NCBI GenBank assembly: GCA_964510585.1
Contig: CAZECW010000187.1
Coordinates: forward strand, 31,912-95,911
Length of the DNA stretch: 64,000 bases
Source of the DNA: an uncultured archaeon
Lineage (GTDB): Archaea; Asgardarchaeota; Jordiarchaeia; Jordiarchaeales; Jordiarchaeaceae
Direction of reading: 5' to 3'
The notes beneath the pieces are model-generated. The model made no database searches. It saw only the letters and a program-made list of their open reading frames with translations, and was not told the DNA's origin. Positions 2,853 to 35,646 of this stretch are shown here, one piece after another. Made by a program: the position numbers and the translations under genes. The first letter of the stretch is position 1. Each line of letters begins with the position of its first letter.

Positions 2853-3632
2853 ATGAATGTGCGACAACCCGTAGAATACCATTGTAATCCGGATTTCACA
2901 ACTGGAGCTGGGGTAATTATAGATGCTCTCAAAAAAAATCGGACACTAATTATCATAGGTGAGTGTACTATAGAGTATCAGGGGCGTGCAAACTCTGAGT
3001 TAGGTTTAGGGGAGCGCATAGTGCTTATAAAGAAGGATGGAAGCTTTTTGGTTCACCGAGCTTGGGATTCTCAACCAGTAAATTGGCAGCCTCCAGGATG
3101 TATCTTTCAAACCAAATCCAGTAAAAAGGGTGTGCTTCTTAAGGCAATAAGAAAAAAACCAAGGGAATCCATTGGAATATTGTTCCCGAAACTTTTTATC
3201 ATCCTCGTTTTGAATTTGAAGGACGAAGCAGAATTCATCATGTTTGGTAGCGAGGAAGACATGCAGAGGGCAATCCTAGCGAAGCCTGATCTAATTGAGG
3301 AAGGTTTTAAGCCAATTCTAAAAGAAAAGGTGGTTGAGCAGGGATTCGTGGACGTATACGGTGTAGATAATCAGGGTAGAACTTTAGTGATAGAGTTGAA
3401 GAGAAGAAAGGCCCAAGTTCAGGATGTGCTGCAACTATTAAAGTATCTGGAAGATATAAAAAGGAAAAGTGCTGGGCGTCCTGTGAGAGCAATGCTTGCC
3501 GCGCCCTCCATATCTAAAGAAGCGTCTTTAATGATTCAGGCGAAGGGCCTTGAATTCAAAACTCTGAGTCCTAAAACATGCGCTGAAGTTTTAAGATTAA
3601 CCGCCTCGAAAAAAATAACCGAGTTCATGTGA
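2853..3632 (+). CDS. nucS: endonuclease NucS (EndoMS)
   Basis: 'IVLIKKDGSFLVH...QPVNWQPPG' and the C-terminal RecB-like 'VIELKRRKA' motif are typical of archaeal NucS, and the length is about 259 aa. Confidence 0.8.
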   Translation: MNVRQPVEYHCNPDFTTGAGVIIDALKKNRTLIIIGECTIEYQGRANSELGLGERIVLIKKDGSFLVHRAWDSQPVNWQPPGCIFQTKSSKKGVLLKAIRKKPRESIGILFPKLFIILVLNLKDEAEFIMFGSEEDMQRAILAKPDLIEEGFKPILKEKVVEQGFVDVYGVDNQGRTLVIELKRRKAQVQDVLQLLKYLEDIKRKSAGRPVRAMLAAPSISKEASLMIQAKGLEFKTLSPKTCAEVLRLTASKKITEFM

Positions 3633-19634: not shown

Positions 19635-20603
19635 ATGCAGGAGTTATTGGTTCCGCCCGATGTTCTAAAACTGCTCAAAAAGCAGAAATACCAGATTGTT
19701 GGGAGGCACTCTGCAGTTAAAAAATGCCGCTGGCTGCATAACAGCCTAGTTCAGGGCAGACACTGCTATAAGCAGGAATGGTACAACATCAAATCCCACA
19801 GATGCTTGCAGATGACCCCCACGGTAATCCACTGTACAAATCGCTGCCTTTCCTGCTGGCGTGTGGAGCCGGGAGACCTAGGATACCATTGGGACCAGTT
19901 AGCTTTTGGAGCGGACGTAGACGACCCAGAGGAAATAGTTGAAGGGTGCATCAAAGCTCAGAGAAAAATTTTATCCGGCTTTAATCCCTCTCACCACACT
20001 AAGGTCTCCTTGGAGAAGTGGAGGGAGGCTATGGAGCCCAAACATGTGGCGATAAGTTTGGCTGGTGAGCCAACCCTTTATCCCCGCCTGAGTGATTTGA
20101 TTGAAGAATTTCACAGTAGAAGAATGACCACCTTTCTTGTAACCAATGGAAATCTTCCCGAGGTACTCGCAGAGATTACAGAGCCCACACAACTGTATGT
20201 TTCCGTTTATGGGCCGAATAAAGAGGTTTACAATAGGGTTTGTCGTCCTCTCCTCAGCGATGCTTGGGAGAGACTGATGAGATCCTTGGAACTGTTAGGC
20301 AGTTTCAGTTGCCCCACGGTTATGCGGCTGACACTAACCAATGGTTTAAATTTTATAGACCCAGAGGGTTATGCTAAACTGGTTGATAGGGCCAATCCTA
20401 CATATGTGGAGTGTAAGAGCTATGTTTCTGTTGGTTACTCCCTCAACCGTGGTTTGAATGCGGATAATATGATTTGGGCTGCTGACGTGAGGAAATTTGC
20501 GGAGAAAATTGCTGAGTTTTCCGGGTACAACCTTATTGGCCATTCTGTTCCCAGCAGGGTCACACTTCTGAGCAGGTTGGAGAAGCCAATAAAGGTGGCT
20601 TAG
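19635..20603 (+). CDS. taw1: tRNA 4-demethylwyosine synthase (TYW1/Taw1, radical SAM)
   Basis: 'GRHSAVKKCRW' and the radical-SAM cluster 'CTNRCLSCWR' are characteristic of archaeal Taw1. Confidence 0.75.
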   Translation: MQELLVPPDVLKLLKKQKYQIVGRHSAVKKCRWLHNSLVQGRHCYKQEWYNIKSHRCLQMTPTVIHCTNRCLSCWRVEPGDLGYHWDQLAFGADVDDPEEIVEGCIKAQRKILSGFNPSHHTKVSLEKWREAMEPKHVAISLAGEPTLYPRLSDLIEEFHSRRMTTFLVTNGNLPEVLAEITEPTQLYVSVYGPNKEVYNRVCRPLLSDAWERLMRSLELLGSFSCPTVMRLTLTNGLNFIDPEGYAKLVDRANPTYVECKSYVSVGYSLNRGLNADNMIWAADVRKFAEKIAEFSGYNLIGHSVPSRVTLLSRLEKPIKVA

Positions 20604-23994: not shown

Positions 23995-24711
23995 TTGTTT
24001 CCTTTGCCCTTCAGAAGTATGATTGATGAGGAGAATAAGTTGACTAATGATGAAACAGTTGAAACAAGCGATTTGGAGAGTATAGTGAACCGTATTGCTA
24101 GTTATCTTAATGAACAATACAATTTGAGGGAGTCAACCCTCACTCTCTCCCGAGACATAATTAGGCTCTCGGGACAAGCTGTTAGATTCATTCATCGTCT
24201 GGATTTCGATAAAGCTATGAAAAAAATTGAAGAAGCCAAAATTAAAGTGGACGAGATAAATAAAAAGCTTGAAAAGTACCCTGAATTTAAAGATAAGGGC
24301 TTCATTAGTTCAGCCTATCAGGAATATGCGGAGGCTAACCTTCTTTTTTCGCTTCTCAAATATAACAAGTTTGTTTCCTTCGAGGCCTTGGACGTGCCAT
24401 GTGTTTCCTATCTTTTGGGTTTGGGAGATCTGGTTGGTGAGTTGAGAAGGCATATTCTGGACTCCATAAGGCGAGAGGATATAGAGAAGGCCGAATCCTT
24501 ACTTGACCTTATGGAGGAAGTGTACACGCTTCTTATGACCATTGATTATCCTGAAGCCTTAACCTCGGGATTAAGGCGCAAATGCGACGTTGCCAGAAGC
24601 CTAGTTGAAAAAACCCGCGGCGATATAACCCTGGCGATTCAAAACAAGCAGCTCATAAAGAAGATGCAAGATTTGTCAGAGCTCCTCGGAGGGAAAAAGG
24701 ACGAAGTTTGA
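23995..24711 (+). CDS. translin-family protein
   Basis: It is all-helical. 'YLLGLGDLVGELRR' matches the conserved translin 'YL.G..DLTGEL.R' segment. Length is about 230 aa. Confidence 0.55.
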   Translation: MFPLPFRSMIDEENKLTNDETVETSDLESIVNRIASYLNEQYNLRESTLTLSRDIIRLSGQAVRFIHRLDFDKAMKKIEEAKIKVDEINKKLEKYPEFKDKGFISSAYQEYAEANLLFSLLKYNKFVSFEALDVPCVSYLLGLGDLVGELRRHILDSIRREDIEKAESLLDLMEEVYTLLMTIDYPEALTSGLRRKCDVARSLVEKTRGDITLAIQNKQLIKKMQDLSELLGGKKDEV

Positions 24712-24805
24712 CATAAAAAAAATACTGGAAAAAGCGGAGCAAGACTATGAAAAAGCTTGGATTGAAACAAAAAATCTACTCACAATAAAGGGCCGAAAAT
24801 TCAAA

Positions 24806-26251
24806 TTGGAGCCTAAGGGCGCACCAAATCCCATAATTGAATTTAACAGCTTGGTTAGACGGGTTCTAATCGAAATGGGATTCGAGGAAGTTGTACTTCC
24901 CATGATAGTTAAGGAATCCGACGTCTACCAAGAATACGGTCCAGAGGCTCCAGTCATACTTGACAGACTCTTCTATTTAGCCGGACTCCCAAGGCCCGAC
25001 ATTGGTCTAGGTGCTGATTCAATCAAAAAAATTAGGGAAATCGTGCCCGATTTTGATAAAGTTAAGGAGTTACAGGATATTCTGAGACGGTACAAAAAGA
25101 ATGAGATAGAGTCAGACGACCTAGTTGAAACCATGGTTACGGAGCTGGGAGTCAGAGAAGAACAGGCCACGAGTATTTTGGATAATGTTTTTTTGGAGTT
25201 TAAGGAGAGAAAACCGGTTCCCACAGATTTGACTTTAAGGTCACATATGTCTGCGCTTTGGTTTCCAGTCCTCTCCGCGGTTATGAATAAGTGGAAACTT
25301 CCGATACAGCTTTTCACCATAGGAAGAAAATTCAGGAGAGAGCAGAGGTTAGACGCCACCCACCTTTATTCCTCCTACACCGCATCCTTTGTAATCATGG
25401 CGGAAGAAATAACCTTGGAGGATGGTATGGAAATTGTTAGAGACTTTCTGAGAAGGACAGGCTTCCAAGAAGTAGATTTCAGGTTTAAAAAGGCAACCTC
25501 AAAGTACTATGCTCCCCAAACAGAGTTTGAAATATTTGTCAGACATCCCAAATCTGGAGATTGGCTGGAAGTAGGAGACAGTGGTTTCTACTCGCCAGTA
25601 AGCCTCGCGAAGTTTGGTATAGAATACCCCGTACTAAATGCCGGCTTTGGAATAGAAAGATTTGTTATGATAAAAACTGGAGAAACAGACATCCGAAGGC
25701 TTTCCTATCCCTACTTCTACAAAGACGTAGGATTTACTGATGAGGAAATAGCTGAGGGAATCTATATTGAAGAGAAGCCGCAAACCGAAACTGGGAGAAA
25801 AATTATGCAGGAGCTGATTAAAACCGCCGAGGCTCATAGAGATGCGGAGGCCCCCTGTGAATTCGTAGCTTGGAGTGGAACAATTGATGGGAAAAAGGTT
25901 TCAGTCAAAATATTGGAAAAAGATAAGGATACAAAACTTTTGGGACCAGCCATCCTAAACCGAATATACGTCTATGACGGAAACATACTGGGCCTACCAG
26001 AAGAAAAGGCAGTGGGAACACCAACAAACATCCGCTATCTGGACGCTTTAGGAGCCTATGCAGCGCGGAGAATCGAAGAAATGATAGAAAAAAATGAGAA
26101 AAACCTAGAACTGAGAATAAGAATAGCAAAAAAGGCCTCCGACGTCAATATAGGGGTAACCACTCCAGTAAGGCATTTCATAACTTCAAAAAGCAAAAAG
26201 ATAGACATAAGAGGACCAGTATTCTTCACTGTATCCGCATCTGTAGAATAG
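24806..26251 (+). CDS. sepS: O-phosphoseryl-tRNA(Cys) synthetase (SepRS)
   Basis: 'VLDRLFYLAGLPRPDIGLG', 'TLRSHMSALWF', 'IGRKFRREQ' and 'GPAILNRIYVYDGNILGLP' match class-II SepRS segments (from memory). The TTG at 24806 is the first listed start, but the conserved N-terminal helix is encoded upstream; see findings. Confidence 0.8.
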   Translation: MEPKGAPNPIIEFNSLVRRVLIEMGFEEVVLPMIVKESDVYQEYGPEAPVILDRLFYLAGLPRPDIGLGADSIKKIREIVPDFDKVKELQDILRRYKKNEIESDDLVETMVTELGVREEQATSILDNVFLEFKERKPVPTDLTLRSHMSALWFPVLSAVMNKWKLPIQLFTIGRKFRREQRLDATHLYSSYTASFVIMAEEITLEDGMEIVRDFLRRTGFQEVDFRFKKATSKYYAPQTEFEIFVRHPKSGDWLEVGDSGFYSPVSLAKFGIEYPVLNAGFGIERFVMIKTGETDIRRLSYPYFYKDVGFTDEEIAEGIYIEEKPQTETGRKIMQELIKTAEAHRDAEAPCEFVAWSGTIDGKKVSVKILEKDKDTKLLGPAILNRIYVYDGNILGLPEEKAVGTPTNIRYLDALGAYAARRIEEMIEKNEKNLELRIRIAKKASDVNIGVTTPVRHFITSKSKKIDIRGPVFFTVSASVE

Positions 26252-26333: not shown

Positions 26334-27041
26334 ATGTTCGGAAGACTTGATTTGAATGAGGGTCAATCCTTGGAAGAGGAGCTCTGGTTTACTTTATTCA
26401 CACTGGCAAGAATGGGAGCCCAGTCAAAAACCTTAGAGATATCCTCCACCCAGCTGGGTAAAAAAATGAATATAAGTCAGCAAACTGCCTCCCGACGCTT
26501 ACAACAGCTGGAGGAAAAGGGTTGGCTAACCAGAGAAATAACGAGAAGAGGCCAGTTTGTCCGACTAACGGATCAAGGGATTAACATGCTCTTAGAAATA
26601 TATTTGTGGCTGCAAACAATTTTTGATAAGAAGCCCCCGGTTCTCATCATTGAGGGTGAATTATTTAGTGGAATGCGTGAAGGAGGCTACTATATCTCTG
26701 TTAATGGTTATAAGAAACAGTTTAAGGAAAAACTGGGCTTCGAACCCTACCCGGGAACCCTAAACCTGAGGCTAAAATCTTACTCGGATCTTCAAGCCAA
26801 AAAAATGTTACAAAAACAACCCGGAATTATGATCGAACAGTTTGAGAATAAGGGAAGAACCTTTGGCGCCGTCAAAATGTTCAAAACTCTTATCAACGAA
26901 AAAGTAGAGGGAGCGGTGTTACTAATTCAACGCACCCACTATGGCGAAGATGTTTTAGAGGTAGTGGCACCAGAATATCTCCGGGAAAAATTGAACCTCA
27001 AAGACGGAGACAAAATTCGACTGAGAATATCTCTCACCTAA
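26334..27041 (+). CDS. ribK: CTP-dependent riboflavin kinase with N-terminal HTH domain (archaeal RibK)
   Basis: 'GYYISVNGYKKQFKEKLGFEPYPGTLNL' matches the archaeal RibK cradle-loop barrel. An N-terminal winged-helix domain is present. Confidence 0.75.
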   Translation: MFGRLDLNEGQSLEEELWFTLFTLARMGAQSKTLEISSTQLGKKMNISQQTASRRLQQLEEKGWLTREITRRGQFVRLTDQGINMLLEIYLWLQTIFDKKPPVLIIEGELFSGMREGGYYISVNGYKKQFKEKLGFEPYPGTLNLRLKSYSDLQAKKMLQKQPGIMIEQFENKGRTFGAVKMFKTLINEKVEGAVLLIQRTHYGEDVLEVVAPEYLREKLNLKDGDKIRLRISLT

Positions 27042-27164
27042 GATGGGGAGTTAACCTAACCTCCAAAAATTGCTAAATCCACCACAAAAAATAAAACAAT
27101 TAGACATTCTTCAGTCTAATTGCAAAAACTCCAGCAATTTTTATGGGCAAAGCAGGGAGAAAGA

Positions 27165-27644
27165 ATGAGTAATCCAGGAAAGAGAGTTATGGCCTTTGGA
27201 ACATTCGACTTGGTACATGTGGGGCATATAAAGTTCTTTGAAGAAGCCAAGAAACTCGGAGGTAAAAACTCAGAGTTAATAGTTGTCATTTCCAGGGATA
27301 GCAATGTTCTAAAAATGAAAAAGCGTCCTCCAATTTTTAATGAGGAGGAGAGGAAGACTGTTGTTCAAGCACTAAAACCAGTAGATAAAGCAATACTGGG
27401 ACACGAAGGAGAAGATATGCTTCAGATCGTTAAAGAGAACAACCCCGACATAATAGTCTTGGGCTACGATCAAAGAATAGAGCCTGAAGAGTTTCAAAAA
27501 TTCAAACAGGAGCTAAAAGAGAAAGGAATCAACGCTAAAGTCGTCCGCCTCCCGAAATACGGCACTGGATTAAACAGCTCAACCATCATTGTGAAGAAAA
27601 TACTTGAAAGAAACAAAAACAATTTTAAAAATGAGGAAAAATAA
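27165..27644 (+). CDS. ribL: FAD synthase (archaeal RibL, cytidylyltransferase-like)
   Basis: 'AFGTFDLVHVGHIKFF...LIVVISRDSNV...ALKPVDKAILG' is collinear with archaeal RibL (HxGH motif). The ATG at 27165 is preceded by GGGAGA. Confidence 0.8.
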   Translation: MSNPGKRVMAFGTFDLVHVGHIKFFEEAKKLGGKNSELIVVISRDSNVLKMKKRPPIFNEEERKTVVQALKPVDKAILGHEGEDMLQIVKENNPDIIVLGYDQRIEPEEFQKFKQELKEKGINAKVVRLPKYGTGLNSSTIIVKKILERNKNNFKNEEK

Positions 27645-34846: not shown

Positions 34847-35646
34847 TTGTATGACGCGCAATTAAATGTTAAGAGAGGATGCAAAAAAGAGTTGCGTGAG
34901 TGGAGATTTTTGGCAAAAAAGGACCTATTGTTTGAAAAGAAAAGACTTCTGGAAGAGTTGAAACGCTCGGGGTTTGTTACTCGGGAAAACGTGATGCGTG
35001 CGTTCCTAGAGGTTCCCAGGGAAGAGTTTGTGCCCCAGAATCTCAGGGACAAGGCCTATGCTGATCATCCTCTTCCCATTCCTGGAGGTCAGACTATATC
35101 TGCGCCACACAAAGAGCACATATTATGCTTTTTGGGCGTGACATGGTTGTAATGATGTGTGACGTACTAGAATTGGAAGAGGGTATGAAGGTACTAGAGG
35201 TGGGCACGGGGTCCGGCTACCACGCAGCACTATGCGCCGAAATAGTGGCGCCCACCGGCTCTAACGCTAAAGGCCATGTTTACACTATTGAACGGATTCC
35301 AGAATTGGTAGAATTCGCCATAGATAATTTGAGGAGGGCGGGGTACCTTGACCGGGTAACCGTCATCACTGGGGATGGTTCGGAAGGATACAAGGAAATG
35401 GCTCCCTACGATGCTATACTCGTCACAGCCGCAGCTCCCAGAGTTCCCCAACCCCTAGTTGACCAACTAAAAATAGGGGGGAGAATGGCCATTCCCCTAG
35501 GAAGCCTCTTTATGTACCAGGAGCTGGTAGTAATTGAAAAAGTGGAGGAGGGCAAAACCAAAAAACAAAGATTCGGCTCAGTAGCCTTCGTCCCCCTACT
35601 GGGAAAATGGGGATTCAGCACGAATTCCAGCTCTTTATCTCTCTAA
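34847..35646 (+). pseudogene. pcm: protein-L-isoaspartate O-methyltransferase (PCMT), reading frame interrupted at a T5 run (two overlapping ORFs, 34847..35152 and 35125..35646)
   Basis: The upstream ORF ends '...GGQTISAPHKEHILCFLGVTWL*'. The downstream ORF in the +1 frame begins 'MLFGRDMVVMMCDVLELEEGMKVLEVGTGSGY' (PCMT motif I). One extra T in 35129-35133 would fuse them. Confidence 0.7.

What the first reader, a model, noticed from the sequence alone, without database searches (positions are those of the whole stretch)
24659..24808. SepRS conserved N-terminal helix encoded upstream of any canonical start, overlapping the translin 3' end
The SepRS reading frame is open from 24659. It encodes '...KFDIKKILEKAEQDYEKAWIETKNLLTIKGRKFK' before the TTG at 24806. 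From memory, this resembles the N-terminal helix of methanogen SepRS ('FDIKKVLELAEKDFETAW...'). No ATG, GTG or TTG occurs in that stretch. The only ATG, at 24664, is in the translin frame, and an A5 run at 24694-24698 lies between. Possible explanations are an ATT (24671) or other non-canonical start, a homopolymer indel, or an actual translin-SepRS coupling or fusion.
Basis: partly seen in the sequence, partly recalled or inferred. Interest (0 to 1): 0.5.

Follow-up and report, generated by a model that had tools for sequence, protein, structure and literature searches.

The report
SepRS gene starts at conserved ACG
In one family of Asgard archaea, the gene for the enzyme that loads phosphoserine onto cysteine tRNA has an ACG codon where its relatives have the ATG start. 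That ACG is preserved in 15 independent assemblies, so it is most likely a rare, deliberately kept non-standard start codon and not a sequencing error or a gene fusion.

Summary
The SepRS frame is open from 24659 and has no ATG, GTG or TTG before 24806. It nevertheless encodes the conserved SepRS N-terminal helix.

- **Position of the N-terminus.** Lys 24704 aligns with residue 2 of A. fulgidus SepRS (PDB 2DU3). ACG 24701-24703 is therefore the Met1 equivalent.
- **Conservation.** All 15 Jordarchaeaceae/Freyarchaeia sequences (78-98% aa identity) have ACG there. All have an invariant GGAGGGAA whose GGAGG core ends 8 nt upstream, and a translin/TRAX stop 8 nt downstream.
- **Sister clade.** A sister Jordarchaeales clade has ATG at the same position with the same overlap.
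- **The helix is translated.** Its pN/pS is 0.16, the same as the gene body.
- **The C is selected.** The C of ACG is a silent site for translin. A T there would give ATG, yet it never varies; only 3 of 58 comparable sites are invariant.
- **The Shine-Dalgarno is selected.** The two Gly codons forming GGAGGG are the only invariant 4-fold sites in the last 150 translin codons.

Rejected: a homopolymer indel, ATT 24671, ATA 24713 and TTG 24806. A +1 frameshift fusion and C-to-U editing are unlikely but not excluded.

Best reading: Shine-Dalgarno-directed initiation at ACG, probably coupled to translin termination. All public gene models in this clade are mis-started.

Side finding: a clade-conserved 32-nt bulge-helix-bulge-like intervening sequence splits the PCMT gene (35111-35142).

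The parts
24040..24711 (+). Translin/TRAX-family gene. The start is uncertain: TTG 24040 gives 223 aa, as called in relatives; ATG 24019 and TTG 23995 are the alternatives. The stop is TGA 24709-24711. Its last 24 nt carry the Shine-Dalgarno sequence and the first three codons of SepRS.
   Evidence: Pfam PF01997, E 1.9e-11. Relatives have 223-aa translin calls. pN/pS is 0.147 in this frame. A TRAX-SepRS operon is described in PMC5424206.
24688..24693 (+). Shine-Dalgarno sequence GGAGG(G) for SepRS. It lies inside the translin codons GGA GGG.
   Evidence: Invariant in 15 of 15 relatives. These are the only two invariant 4-fold synonymous sites in the last 150 translin codons. The 8-nt spacing to ACG equals the most common spacing among window genes.
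24701..24703 (+). ACG, the proposed SepRS initiation codon. It is the positional homologue of the ATG in the sister clade and of Met1 in A. fulgidus SepRS.
   Evidence: ACG in 15 of 15 clade members. ATG sits at the identical position and overlap geometry in L010-L013. The PDB alignment places Lys 24704 at residue 2. The C at 24702 is silent for translin yet invariant, while 0 of 17 and 3 of 41 comparable sites are invariant.
24709..24711 (+). Translin stop codon TGA, 8 nt downstream of the A of ACG. It lies within SepRS codons 3-4 (TTT GAC).
   Evidence: The stop sits at the same offset in all 15 relatives (TAA in L009) and in the ATG-clade loci L010-L013.
24704..24805 (+). Coding sequence for the conserved SepRS N-terminal helix (KFDIKKILEKAEQDYEKAWIETKNLLTIKGRKFK).
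   Evidence: pN/pS is 0.159 in this frame and about 1 in the other two (measured on 24713-24805); the gene body gives 0.166. Aligns to residues 2-35 of 2DU3.
24806..24808 (+). TTG, the first canonical start by mechanical ORF calling. It is in fact an internal, family-wide conserved Leu codon.
   Evidence: Leu in ...F[KR]L[KE].... The upstream helix is under selection.
24701..26251 (+). Full-length SepRS (O-phosphoseryl-tRNA synthetase) coding sequence as re-annotated here: 516 codons plus stop.
   Evidence: Aligns end to end with PDB 2DU3, 2DU7, 5X6C and 2ODR, E 3.5e-128. Pfam PF01409. 1371 homologues found.
26334..27644 (+). Downstream genes of the operon: a CTP-dependent riboflavin kinase with an HTH domain (26334-27041) and a cytidylyltransferase-like gene resembling FAD synthetase (27120-27644).
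   Evidence: Pfam matches for 27120-27641. Same gene order in relatives. Operon described in PMC5424206.

Best explanation
SepRS in this family (Jordarchaeaceae/Freyarchaeia, Asgard archaea) is translated from the near-cognate codon ACG at 24701-24703.

**Proposed mechanism (inferred)**
- The small ribosomal subunit is positioned by a perfect GGAGG Shine-Dalgarno sequence 8 nt upstream, inside the translin/TRAX coding sequence.
- Ribosomes finishing translin stop only 8 nt downstream of the ACG. Much of the initiation is therefore probably termination-reinitiation coupling.
- Initiator Met-tRNA pairs with ACG with a mismatch at the middle position. This gives a full-length SepRS beginning (M)KFDIKK..., made at a low and possibly regulated level relative to translin.

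**Evolutionary origin**
- ACG arose from ATG by a T-to-C change that is silent in translin (AAT to AAC).
- It has since been kept by selection.

**Shown versus inferred**
- Shown: positional homology to ATG/Met1; translation of the helix; nucleotide-level selection on GGAGGG and on the C of ACG; absence of any conserved alternative start.
- Inferred: that the initiator tRNA reads ACG; the coupling to translin termination; the dosage rationale.
For: 1. ACG is present in 15 of 15 independent assemblies at 78-98% SepRS identity.
2. Sister-clade loci L010-L013 have ATG at exactly this position, with the translin stop at +8..+10 and the same gene order. L014 has the same order with ATG at 3001, but its translin ends 6 nt later.
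3. Residue 2 of the solved A. fulgidus SepRS aligns to codon 24704. About 85 of 112 other SepRS sequences start 2-3 residues before the F/L.
4. The helix region has pN/pS 0.159 in the SepRS frame and about 1 in the other frames.
5. The C of ACG is a translin synonymous site and is invariant. Only 0 of 17 (translin) and 3 of 41 (SepRS) two-fold pyrimidine sites are invariant, and T is usually the preferred base.
6. The third positions of GGA GGG are the only invariant 4-fold sites in 150 translin codons.
7. A Shine-Dalgarno match of at least 5 nt precedes 28 of 61 window genes, against 5.7% of random positions. The most common spacing is 8 nt, the same as for ACG.
8. No other codon is a conserved start candidate. 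The +12 codon is ATA, ATC, GTC or CTA. The 24671 column is ATT, ATC, GTT, GTC or CCT. The codon before ACG is AGG, AGA, GTA, GCG, ACA, GCA or ATA.
9. Termination-reinitiation coupling of overlapping genes has been demonstrated in archaea (PMC6728339).
10. ACG can start translation with an N-terminal Met even in E. coli, at low level (bioRxiv 10.1101/063800).
11. About 30% of the putative alternative start sites found by harringtonine ribosome profiling in Haloferax were near-cognate codons (PMC7261190).
Against: - There is no direct evidence: no proteomic, Ribo-seq or transcript data.
- My literature searches found no reported native ACG start in archaea.
- In E. coli, ACG falls in the group of 57 codons that start translation at only 0.1-1% of the AUG level. 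Archaeal aIF1 has been shown to discriminate against AUU (PMC4705826).
- The sixth G of GGAGGG is not needed for pairing with an assumed CCUCC anti-Shine-Dalgarno sequence, yet it is invariant. The 16S rRNA 3' end of this lineage was not examined.
- The evidence that the C is selected rests on one site (about 5% chance).
- No other ACG start was found in the 64-kb window. This lineage therefore shows no general tolerance for ACG.
Confidence: 0.68

Rival explanations
1. Programmed +1 ribosomal frameshift. Ribosomes translating translin would slip +1 on the invariant GGG-A (24691-24694), or on the A run after it, and continue in the SepRS frame. The product would be a translin-SepRS fusion of about 740 aa reading ...LLGGK-RTKFDIKK....
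For: The SepRS frame is +1 relative to translin and is open across the junction. GGAGGGAA is invariant, including a G that Shine-Dalgarno pairing does not need. A Shine-Dalgarno-like element near a +1 shift site is known from bacterial prfB (my own knowledge).
Against: - The A run is not conserved: A5, A4, A3 and A2 all occur.
- The 0-frame codon after GGG is the ordinary Lys codon AAA or AAG. It is neither a stop nor, as far as I can judge, a rare codon, so nothing would pause the ribosome.
- There is no conserved RNA structure: the consensus fold is -3 kcal/mol.
- None of the 120 listed SepRS homologues has a Translin Pfam domain on record, and their lengths (334-545 aa) are those of SepRS alone.
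- The sister clade makes two separate proteins from the same geometry using ATG.
- SepRS-frame residues upstream of GGAGGG vary radically (S, Y, F, L). They follow translin's silent sites.
- A linker Thr would not explain why ACG never changes.
Confidence: 0.07
2. C-to-U RNA editing converts ACG to AUG in the mRNA, as happens at plant organelle start codons. The start would then be canonical at the RNA level.
For: ACG is exactly one C-to-U change away from AUG and sits at the Met position. ACG-to-AUG start-codon editing is well known in plant organelles, and C-to-U editing of a tRNA is known in archaea (my own knowledge).
Against: - I know of no report of mRNA C-to-U editing in archaea, and my searches did not address editing.
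- At edited sites, related genomes commonly carry a genomic T. Here 0 of 15 do, although T would be silent for translin.
- No conserved structure or recognisable editing motif surrounds the site.
Confidence: 0.04
3. Sequencing or assembly artefact, or a strain-specific mutation. A homopolymer indel or a T-to-C error would have destroyed a normal ATG start or a fused frame in this one assembly.
For: A5 and A8 runs flank the site, and the sequences come from metagenome assemblies.
Against: The same ACG, the same frames and the same stop offset occur in 15 sequences. They come from NCBI genome assemblies (including a complete chromosome, CP147778.1), JGI, ENA and Logan. The homopolymers differ by substitutions, and the alignment from -150 to +150 is ungapped.
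Confidence: 0.01
4. SepRS starts at a different, lineage-variable non-canonical or downstream codon: ATT 24671, ATA 24713 or TTG 24806. ACG would then be just an internal or untranslated Thr codon.
For: Public annotations choose ATT at the 24761 equivalent (P0001), or TTG and ATG codons further downstream (P0003-P0008). L005 and L009 have upstream in-frame TTG codons.
Against: - TTG 24806 and the other downstream starts would delete a helix that is under selection and is present in solved structures.
- ATA 24713 is GTC in L016 and CTA in L018, and lies 20 nt from the Shine-Dalgarno sequence.
- The ATT 24671 column is not conserved, and I see no Shine-Dalgarno sequence upstream of it.
- Upstream canonical starts exist in only 2 of 15 sequences.
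- K/R-F/L-D/N after ACG matches the family N-terminus.
Confidence: 0.08

Closest known systems
TRAX(translin)-SepRS-riboflavin kinase-FAD synthase operon of clade I SepRS (Mukai et al. 2017, mBio, PMC5424206)
   Same: Same genes in the same order. The paper proposes that clade I SepRS derives from an ancestral operon containing an archaeal TRAX homologue. I also see the order Taw1-translin-SepRS in another Asgard lineage (L021).
   Different: The term 'start codon' does not occur in the paper's main text. Here the two genes overlap by 11 nt, and the SepRS ATG has been replaced by a conserved ACG.
Termination-reinitiation translational coupling of overlapping gene pairs in archaea and bacteria (Huber et al. 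2019, PMC6728339)
   Same: Co-directional overlapping genes. The downstream start lies next to the upstream stop, and a Shine-Dalgarno sequence sits inside the upstream gene.
   Different: The overlaps the paper names are ATGA and TGATG, with canonical start codons. Here the overlap is 11 nt and the restart codon is ACG. Coupling was not tested here.
infC (IF3) AUU start codon in bacteria
   Same: A conserved, selectively maintained weak non-canonical start codon in a translation-apparatus gene, used to set or regulate expression (my own knowledge).
   Different: infC uses AUU and has a demonstrated autoregulatory loop through IF3's own start-codon proofreading. No such loop is known or evident for SepRS. 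The domain of life and the initiation factors (aIF1/aIF2) also differ.
Eukaryotic ACG-initiated proteins, including yeast ALA1 (alanyl-tRNA synthetase mitochondrial isoform from ACG codons)
   Same: ACG is read by initiator Met-tRNA as a near-cognate start, and again in an aminoacyl-tRNA synthetase gene (my own knowledge).
   Different: In eukaryotes ACG usually produces an additional N-terminally extended isoform by leaky scanning. Here ACG appears to be the only start, selected by a Shine-Dalgarno sequence.
prfB (RF2) +1 programmed frameshift
   Same: An upstream frame ends at UGA, the downstream frame is +1, and a Shine-Dalgarno-like element lies nearby.
   Different: There is no CUU-U type slippery codon at the stop. 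The last sense codon is GTT, ATT or ACT, and it varies. The conserved SepRS residues begin upstream of the stop.
Plant organelle ACG-to-AUG start-codon editing
   Same: A genomic ACG at the position of an orthologous ATG start.
   Different: Archaeal lineage, no known editing machinery, and no relative with a genomic T.

Membership tests
O-phosphoseryl-tRNA synthetase (SepRS) | [quoted passage not shown] | tested here: met
   phmmer against PDB: 2DU3 E 3.5e-128, query residues 16-530 aligned to chain residues 2-534. Also hits 2DU7, 5X6C and 2ODR.
O-phosphoseryl-tRNA synthetase (SepRS) | Pfam class II core domain (tRNA-synt_2d) and the SepRS_C domain | tested here: inconclusive
   PF01409 is clearly met (1.5e-46, 159 bits). 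PF18006 SepRS_C scores 26.3 bits, just under its 26.9-bit cut-off. The PDB alignment covers the C-terminal domain.
Translin/TRAX family | Match to Pfam PF01997 above the gathering score | tested here: met
   44.8 bits against a cut-off of 25.9, E 1.9e-11, residues 45-206.
Near-cognate (non-AUG) initiation codon | A codon one base from AUG, conserved at the position homologous to the orthologues' initiator Met | tested here: met
   ACG in 15 of 15. ATG at the same position in the sister clade. Equivalent to Met1 of 2DU3.
Near-cognate (non-AUG) initiation codon | A ribosome-binding signal at functional spacing, and no conserved canonical start in the open frame | tested here: met
   Invariant GGAGG 8 nt upstream, which is the most common spacing in the window. 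Canonical upstream starts occur in only 2 of 15 sequences.
Near-cognate (non-AUG) initiation codon | The protein N-terminus or a ribosome initiation footprint maps to the codon | not testable with these tools
   Needs proteomics or start-site ribosome profiling of an uncultured archaeon, or a reporter in a model archaeon.
Programmed +1 ribosomal frameshifting (prfB/antizyme type) | A conserved slippery P-site codon followed by a slow-to-decode 0-frame codon (a stop or a rare codon) | tested here: not met
   The only invariant candidate, GGG-A, is followed by the Lys codon AAA or AAG. The codons before the stop vary (GTT, ATT, ACT) and cannot re-pair in the +1 frame.
Programmed +1 ribosomal frameshifting (prfB/antizyme type) | Orthologues in which the two ORFs are fused in frame | tested here: not met
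   None of the 120 listed SepRS homologues has a Translin Pfam domain on record. Lengths are 334-545 aa.
C-to-U start-codon editing | Some relatives carry a genomic T at the edited position | tested here: not met
   C in 15 of 15, although T is silent for translin.
C-to-U start-codon editing | Transcripts carry U where the genome has C | not testable with these tools
   No transcript data available.
Termination-reinitiation coupled gene pair | Co-directional genes with the downstream start overlapping or adjacent to the upstream stop, conserved across relatives | tested here: met
   An 11-nt overlap is conserved in all 15 ACG-clade sequences and in ATG-clade loci L010-L013.
Termination-reinitiation coupled gene pair | Translation of the downstream gene depends on translation of the upstream gene | not testable with these tools
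   Needs a reporter with a premature stop in translin.

The most novel reading that the evidence does not exclude
ACG is a true initiation codon, maintained by selection, in an aminoacyl-tRNA synthetase gene that looks indispensable in Asgard archaea. It would be kept in preference to ATG because weak, stringency-sensitive initiation tunes or regulates SepRS output relative to the co-translated TRAX protein. SepRS may be prone to such starts more widely: a Helarchaeota genome has ATC at the same position. This would be the first natural ACG start documented in archaea, in the lineage closest to eukaryotes, where ACG initiation is established.
Probability: 0.35. Interest if true: 0.7.

Novelty: new variant of a known kind. 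Interest (0 to 1): 0.55.

Why it matters
**Annotation.** None of the eight public gene models seen for this clade starts at ACG.
- Seven (P0001, P0003-P0008) lack 20-58 N-terminal residues. One of these (P0001) is started at ATT.
- The eighth (P0002) is extended upstream from a TTG.
- Gene callers that allow only ATG, GTG and TTG cannot get this gene right.

**Biology.** The data give comparative evidence for three things.
- An archaeal ribosome uses ACG as a start.
- Selection keeps ACG, although one silent transition would restore ATG.
- The Shine-Dalgarno sequence embedded in the upstream gene is under nucleotide-level selection.

Together these make a testable case for start-codon-level dosage control of the tRNA-dependent cysteine pathway. 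They also bear on how eukaryote-like near-cognate initiation is in Asgard archaea.

**Side finding.** A clade-conserved 32-nt bulge-helix-bulge-like intervening sequence in the PCMT gene suggests that this lineage splices protein-coding mRNAs.

Tried and rejected
- **Homopolymer indel at A5 (24694-98) or A8 (24715-22).** Rejected. Fifteen assemblies align without gaps, and the runs differ only by substitutions.
- **ATT 24671 as the start.** Rejected. The column is not conserved, and I see no Shine-Dalgarno sequence before it.
- **ATA 24713 as the start.** Rejected. It is GTC in L016 and CTA in L018, and it lies 20 nt from the Shine-Dalgarno sequence.
- **TTG 24806 as the start.** Rejected. The helix upstream has pN/pS 0.16 and is present in solved SepRS structures.
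- **+1 slippage or transcriptional slippage on the A run.** Rejected. The run shrinks to A2-A3 in L006, L008 and L009.
- **Ribosome hop from GAC 24700 to GAC 24710.** Rejected. The take-off codon is AAC in five relatives.
- **Splicing that would join ATG 24664 to the SepRS frame.** Rejected. That ATG is not conserved, and RNAalifold finds no structure (-3 kcal/mol).
- **Other ACG starts in the window.** Only one GGAGG-N3-12-ACG lies in frame with an ORF of at least 80 aa, and that is SepRS. Nine other genes with long start-less upstream stretches all have Pfam domains that begin after their canonical start.
- **Special tRNA or RNA element nearby.** No tRNA gene and no Rfam family was found in the window.
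- **Literature.** Searches for an ACG start codon in archaea found nothing relevant.
- **L024 (P0036).** It looked like a third odd SepRS start, but it has a usable GTG preceded by GAGGA and possibly a 1-nt indel. I do not count it.
Full report
**1. The observation**

I read 24000-25200 and translated all frames.
- A translin-family ORF (PF01997) runs in frame 1 and ends with TGA at 24709-24711.
- The SepRS frame (frame 2, that is +1) has a TAA at 24656-58 and is open from 24659.
- It contains no in-frame ATG, GTG or TTG until TTG 24806, the mechanical ORF start.
- It encodes RRCKICQSSSEGKR-T-KFDIKKILEKAEQDYEKAWIETKNLLTIKGRKFK.
The second run is A8 at 24715-22.

**2. Where the SepRS N-terminus is**

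- Against solved structures, the extended translation aligns end to end with A. fulgidus SepRS (2DU3, E 3.5e-128). Query residue 16 (Lys, codon 24704) aligns to chain residue 2. The preceding codon, ACG 24701-03, therefore corresponds to Met1.
- Of the 112 listed SepRS homologues outside the close clade, about 85 begin M-x-[FL]-[DN] or M-x-K-[FL]-[DN].
- The helix is therefore a standard part of the enzyme.

**3. It is clade-wide, not an error**

- The closest database proteins (Jordarchaeaceae, Asgard archaea; 79-98% identity) are almost all called as N-terminally truncated products of 458-496 aa. One starts at ATT. One (P0002, 531 aa) is called from an upstream start codon and also has Thr at the Met position.
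- I retrieved DNA for 14 relatives from NCBI genome assemblies (including the complete chromosome CP147778.1), JGI, ENA and Logan.
- All 15 sequences align without gaps from -150 to +150.
- All share ACG at the Met position, an invariant GGAGGGAA whose GGAGG core ends 8 nt upstream, and the translin stop at +8..+10 (TGA; TAA in L009).
- The A runs differ by substitution (A5, A4, A3, A2), so a homopolymer indel is excluded.
- Only 2 of 15 sequences (L005 and L009) have any canonical in-frame start upstream. Both are TTG, and they sit at different positions.

**4. ACG is the positional homologue of ATG**

- A sister Jordarchaeales clade (about 61% identity; P0009 and P0010) has the same gene order: Taw1-like radical SAM, translin, SepRS, riboflavin kinase, then a cytidylyltransferase-like gene resembling FAD synthetase.
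- In L010-L013 it also has the same geometry. ATG is at locus position 3001 and the translin stop is at 3009-3011.
- The translin tail there is ...N-E-V* (AAT GAG GTT TAA). In the ACG clade it is [DN]-E-[VIT]* ([GA]AC GA[AG] ...).
- A T-to-C change that is silent for translin (AAT to AAC) therefore turned ATG into ACG.

**5. The helix is translated**

| Region | Frame | pN/pS |
|---|---|---|
| 24713-24805 (outside the overlap) | SepRS | 0.159 |
| 24713-24805 | other two frames | 1.08 and 0.95 |
| Next 300 nt of the gene | SepRS | 0.166 |
| Translin body | translin | 0.147 |

- Upstream of GGAGGG, the SepRS-frame residues vary radically (S, Y, F, L). They simply follow translin's silent sites, so that stretch is not constrained as SepRS protein.
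- After ACG, the residues K/R-F/L-D/N match the family N-terminus.

**6. Nucleotide-level selection**

- The C of ACG is the third position of translin's Asp/Asn codon. A T there would be silent for translin and would create ATG.
- It is C in 15 of 15 sequences.
- Among 13 non-redundant sequences, 0 of 17 comparable two-fold pyrimidine sites in translin and 3 of 41 in SepRS are invariant. T is usually the preferred base.
- The third positions of the GGA GGG codons are the only invariant 4-fold sites in the last 150 translin codons.
- Both the Shine-Dalgarno sequence and the identity of the ACG codon are therefore under selection beyond what either protein requires.

**7. Shine-Dalgarno usage in this genome**

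- Of 61 long ORFs in the window, 28 have a match of at least 5 nt to the assumed anti-Shine-Dalgarno complement upstream of a candidate start. At random positions the rate is 5.7%.
- I picked the best of several candidate starts for each ORF, which inflates the gene figure somewhat.
- The most common aligned spacing is 8 nt, the same as GGAGG to ACG.

**8. Alternatives examined**

- *Other start codons.* The columns for ATT 24671, ATA 24713 and the codon before ACG are not conserved as start-capable codons.
- *+1 frameshift fusion.*
  - The A run is not conserved.
  - The only invariant candidate slip site, GGG-A, is followed by an ordinary Lys codon.
  - There is no conserved RNA structure (RNAalifold -3 kcal/mol).
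  - No listed SepRS homologue has a Translin domain on record.
  - It cannot be excluded from sequence alone. It would neatly explain the invariant sixth G, so I leave it about 7%.
- *C-to-U editing.* No relative has a genomic T, and I know of no mRNA editing in archaea. About 4%.
- *Hop or splicing.* A hop from GAC to GAC, or splicing to ATG 24664, is not supported by conservation.
- *A genome-wide habit.* No other gene in the window needs a non-canonical start. This is a gene-specific feature.

**9. Mechanism proposed**

- The Shine-Dalgarno sequence places ACG in the P site.
- Ribosomes terminating translin 8 nt downstream are held by the same sequence and reinitiate. Termination-reinitiation coupling of overlapping genes has been demonstrated in Haloferax and E. 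coli (PMC6728339).
- ACG supports low-level initiation with an N-terminal Met even in E. coli (10.1101/063800).
- About 30% of the putative alternative start sites mapped in Haloferax were near-cognate codons (PMC7261190).
- The persistence of ACG, when a silent reversion would give ATG, suggests that weak or stringency-sensitive initiation is itself advantageous, for example to hold SepRS low relative to TRAX.
- This last step is inference.

**10. Relation to what is known**

- The TRAX-SepRS-RFK-FADS operon was described by Mukai et al. 2017 (PMC5424206). The term 'start codon' does not occur in that paper's main text.
- My searches found no report of a native ACG start in archaea.
- The closest functional analogues, from my own knowledge, are the infC AUU start and eukaryotic ACG-initiated synthetase isoforms such as yeast ALA1.
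- I classify this as a new variant of a known kind: non-AUG initiation combined with translational coupling.

**11. Things seen in passing**

- *A second odd SepRS start.* A Helarchaeota genome assembly (L023) has ATC at the Met-equivalent codon, a GGTGA 6 nt upstream and an in-frame TGA inside that Shine-Dalgarno sequence. NCBI annotated ATT 12 nt downstream as the start. It is a single contig.
- *A split PCMT gene.*
  - The window's PCMT gene is split at 35111-35142 by 32 nt. Removing them restores ...GGQTISAPH|MVVMMCDVLEL....
  - Fifteen close relatives with 76-100% identity are called as 158-167-aa C-terminal fragments. Homologues at 64% identity or less are 219-255 aa.
  - A relative at 76% identity (L025) has a 32-nt insert at the same place. 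Its hairpin shows a compensatory C-G to G-C change.
  - The junctions fall after the second base of two 3-nt bulges that flank a GCGCC/GGCG helix.
  - This is bulge-helix-bulge geometry, which suggests an mRNA intron cut by the tRNA splicing endonuclease.

Noticed in passing
window 34847-35646 (+); intervening sequence 35111-35142; relative L025 about 1154-1185: The PCMT (protein-L-isoaspartate O-methyltransferase) gene is split into two frames by a 32-nt insert. Removing it restores ...GGQTISAPH|MVVMMCDVLEL....

- Fifteen close Jordarchaeia/Freyarchaeia relatives are called as 158-167-aa C-terminal fragments. More distant homologues are called at 219-255 aa.
- L025 (76% identity) has a 32-nt insert at the same site, with a compensatory base-pair change in its hairpin.
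- The junctions lie in two 3-nt bulges flanking a 4-5-bp helix.

This is probably a bulge-helix-bulge mRNA intron.
   Followed up: partly
L023 1170-1205 (Helarchaeota genome assembly, JBQSBJ010000139.1): A second SepRS gene without a canonical start. The Met-equivalent codon is ATC (1189). GGTGA lies 6 nt upstream, and an in-frame TGA sits inside that Shine-Dalgarno sequence. The NCBI model starts at ATT 1201. It is a single contig, so an error cannot be excluded.
   Followed up: partly
L021 790-4096; L010-L014 1296-4566; window 19635-20603 and 24040-26251: A Taw1-like wyosine radical-SAM gene, then translin/TRAX, then SepRS form a conserved tRNA-related cluster in several Asgard lineages. In L021 a 63-nt spacer and an ATG separate translin from SepRS. 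In the window, four forward-strand ORFs (one ParA/MinD-like ATPase, one thioesterase, two with no Pfam assignment) and a reverse-strand Sir2 gene lie between Taw1 and translin.
   Followed up: partly
window 24019-24040: The translin start is ambiguous. TTG 23995 is the mechanical start. ATG 24019 has no obvious Shine-Dalgarno sequence. TTG 24040 is preceded by GAGGAG and gives the 223 aa called in relatives.
   Followed up: no
L024 1183-1208: In this SepRS locus (P0036) an out-of-frame ATG (GTGATGGGCGG) would give M-A-A-R-I-D-V if one G were removed. This could be a 1-nt indel in the assembly, or the start may have moved to GTG 1201.
   Followed up: no
window 1-64000: No tRNA gene and no Rfam family was detected in 64 kb. 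G+C content is 41.9%.
   Followed up: yes
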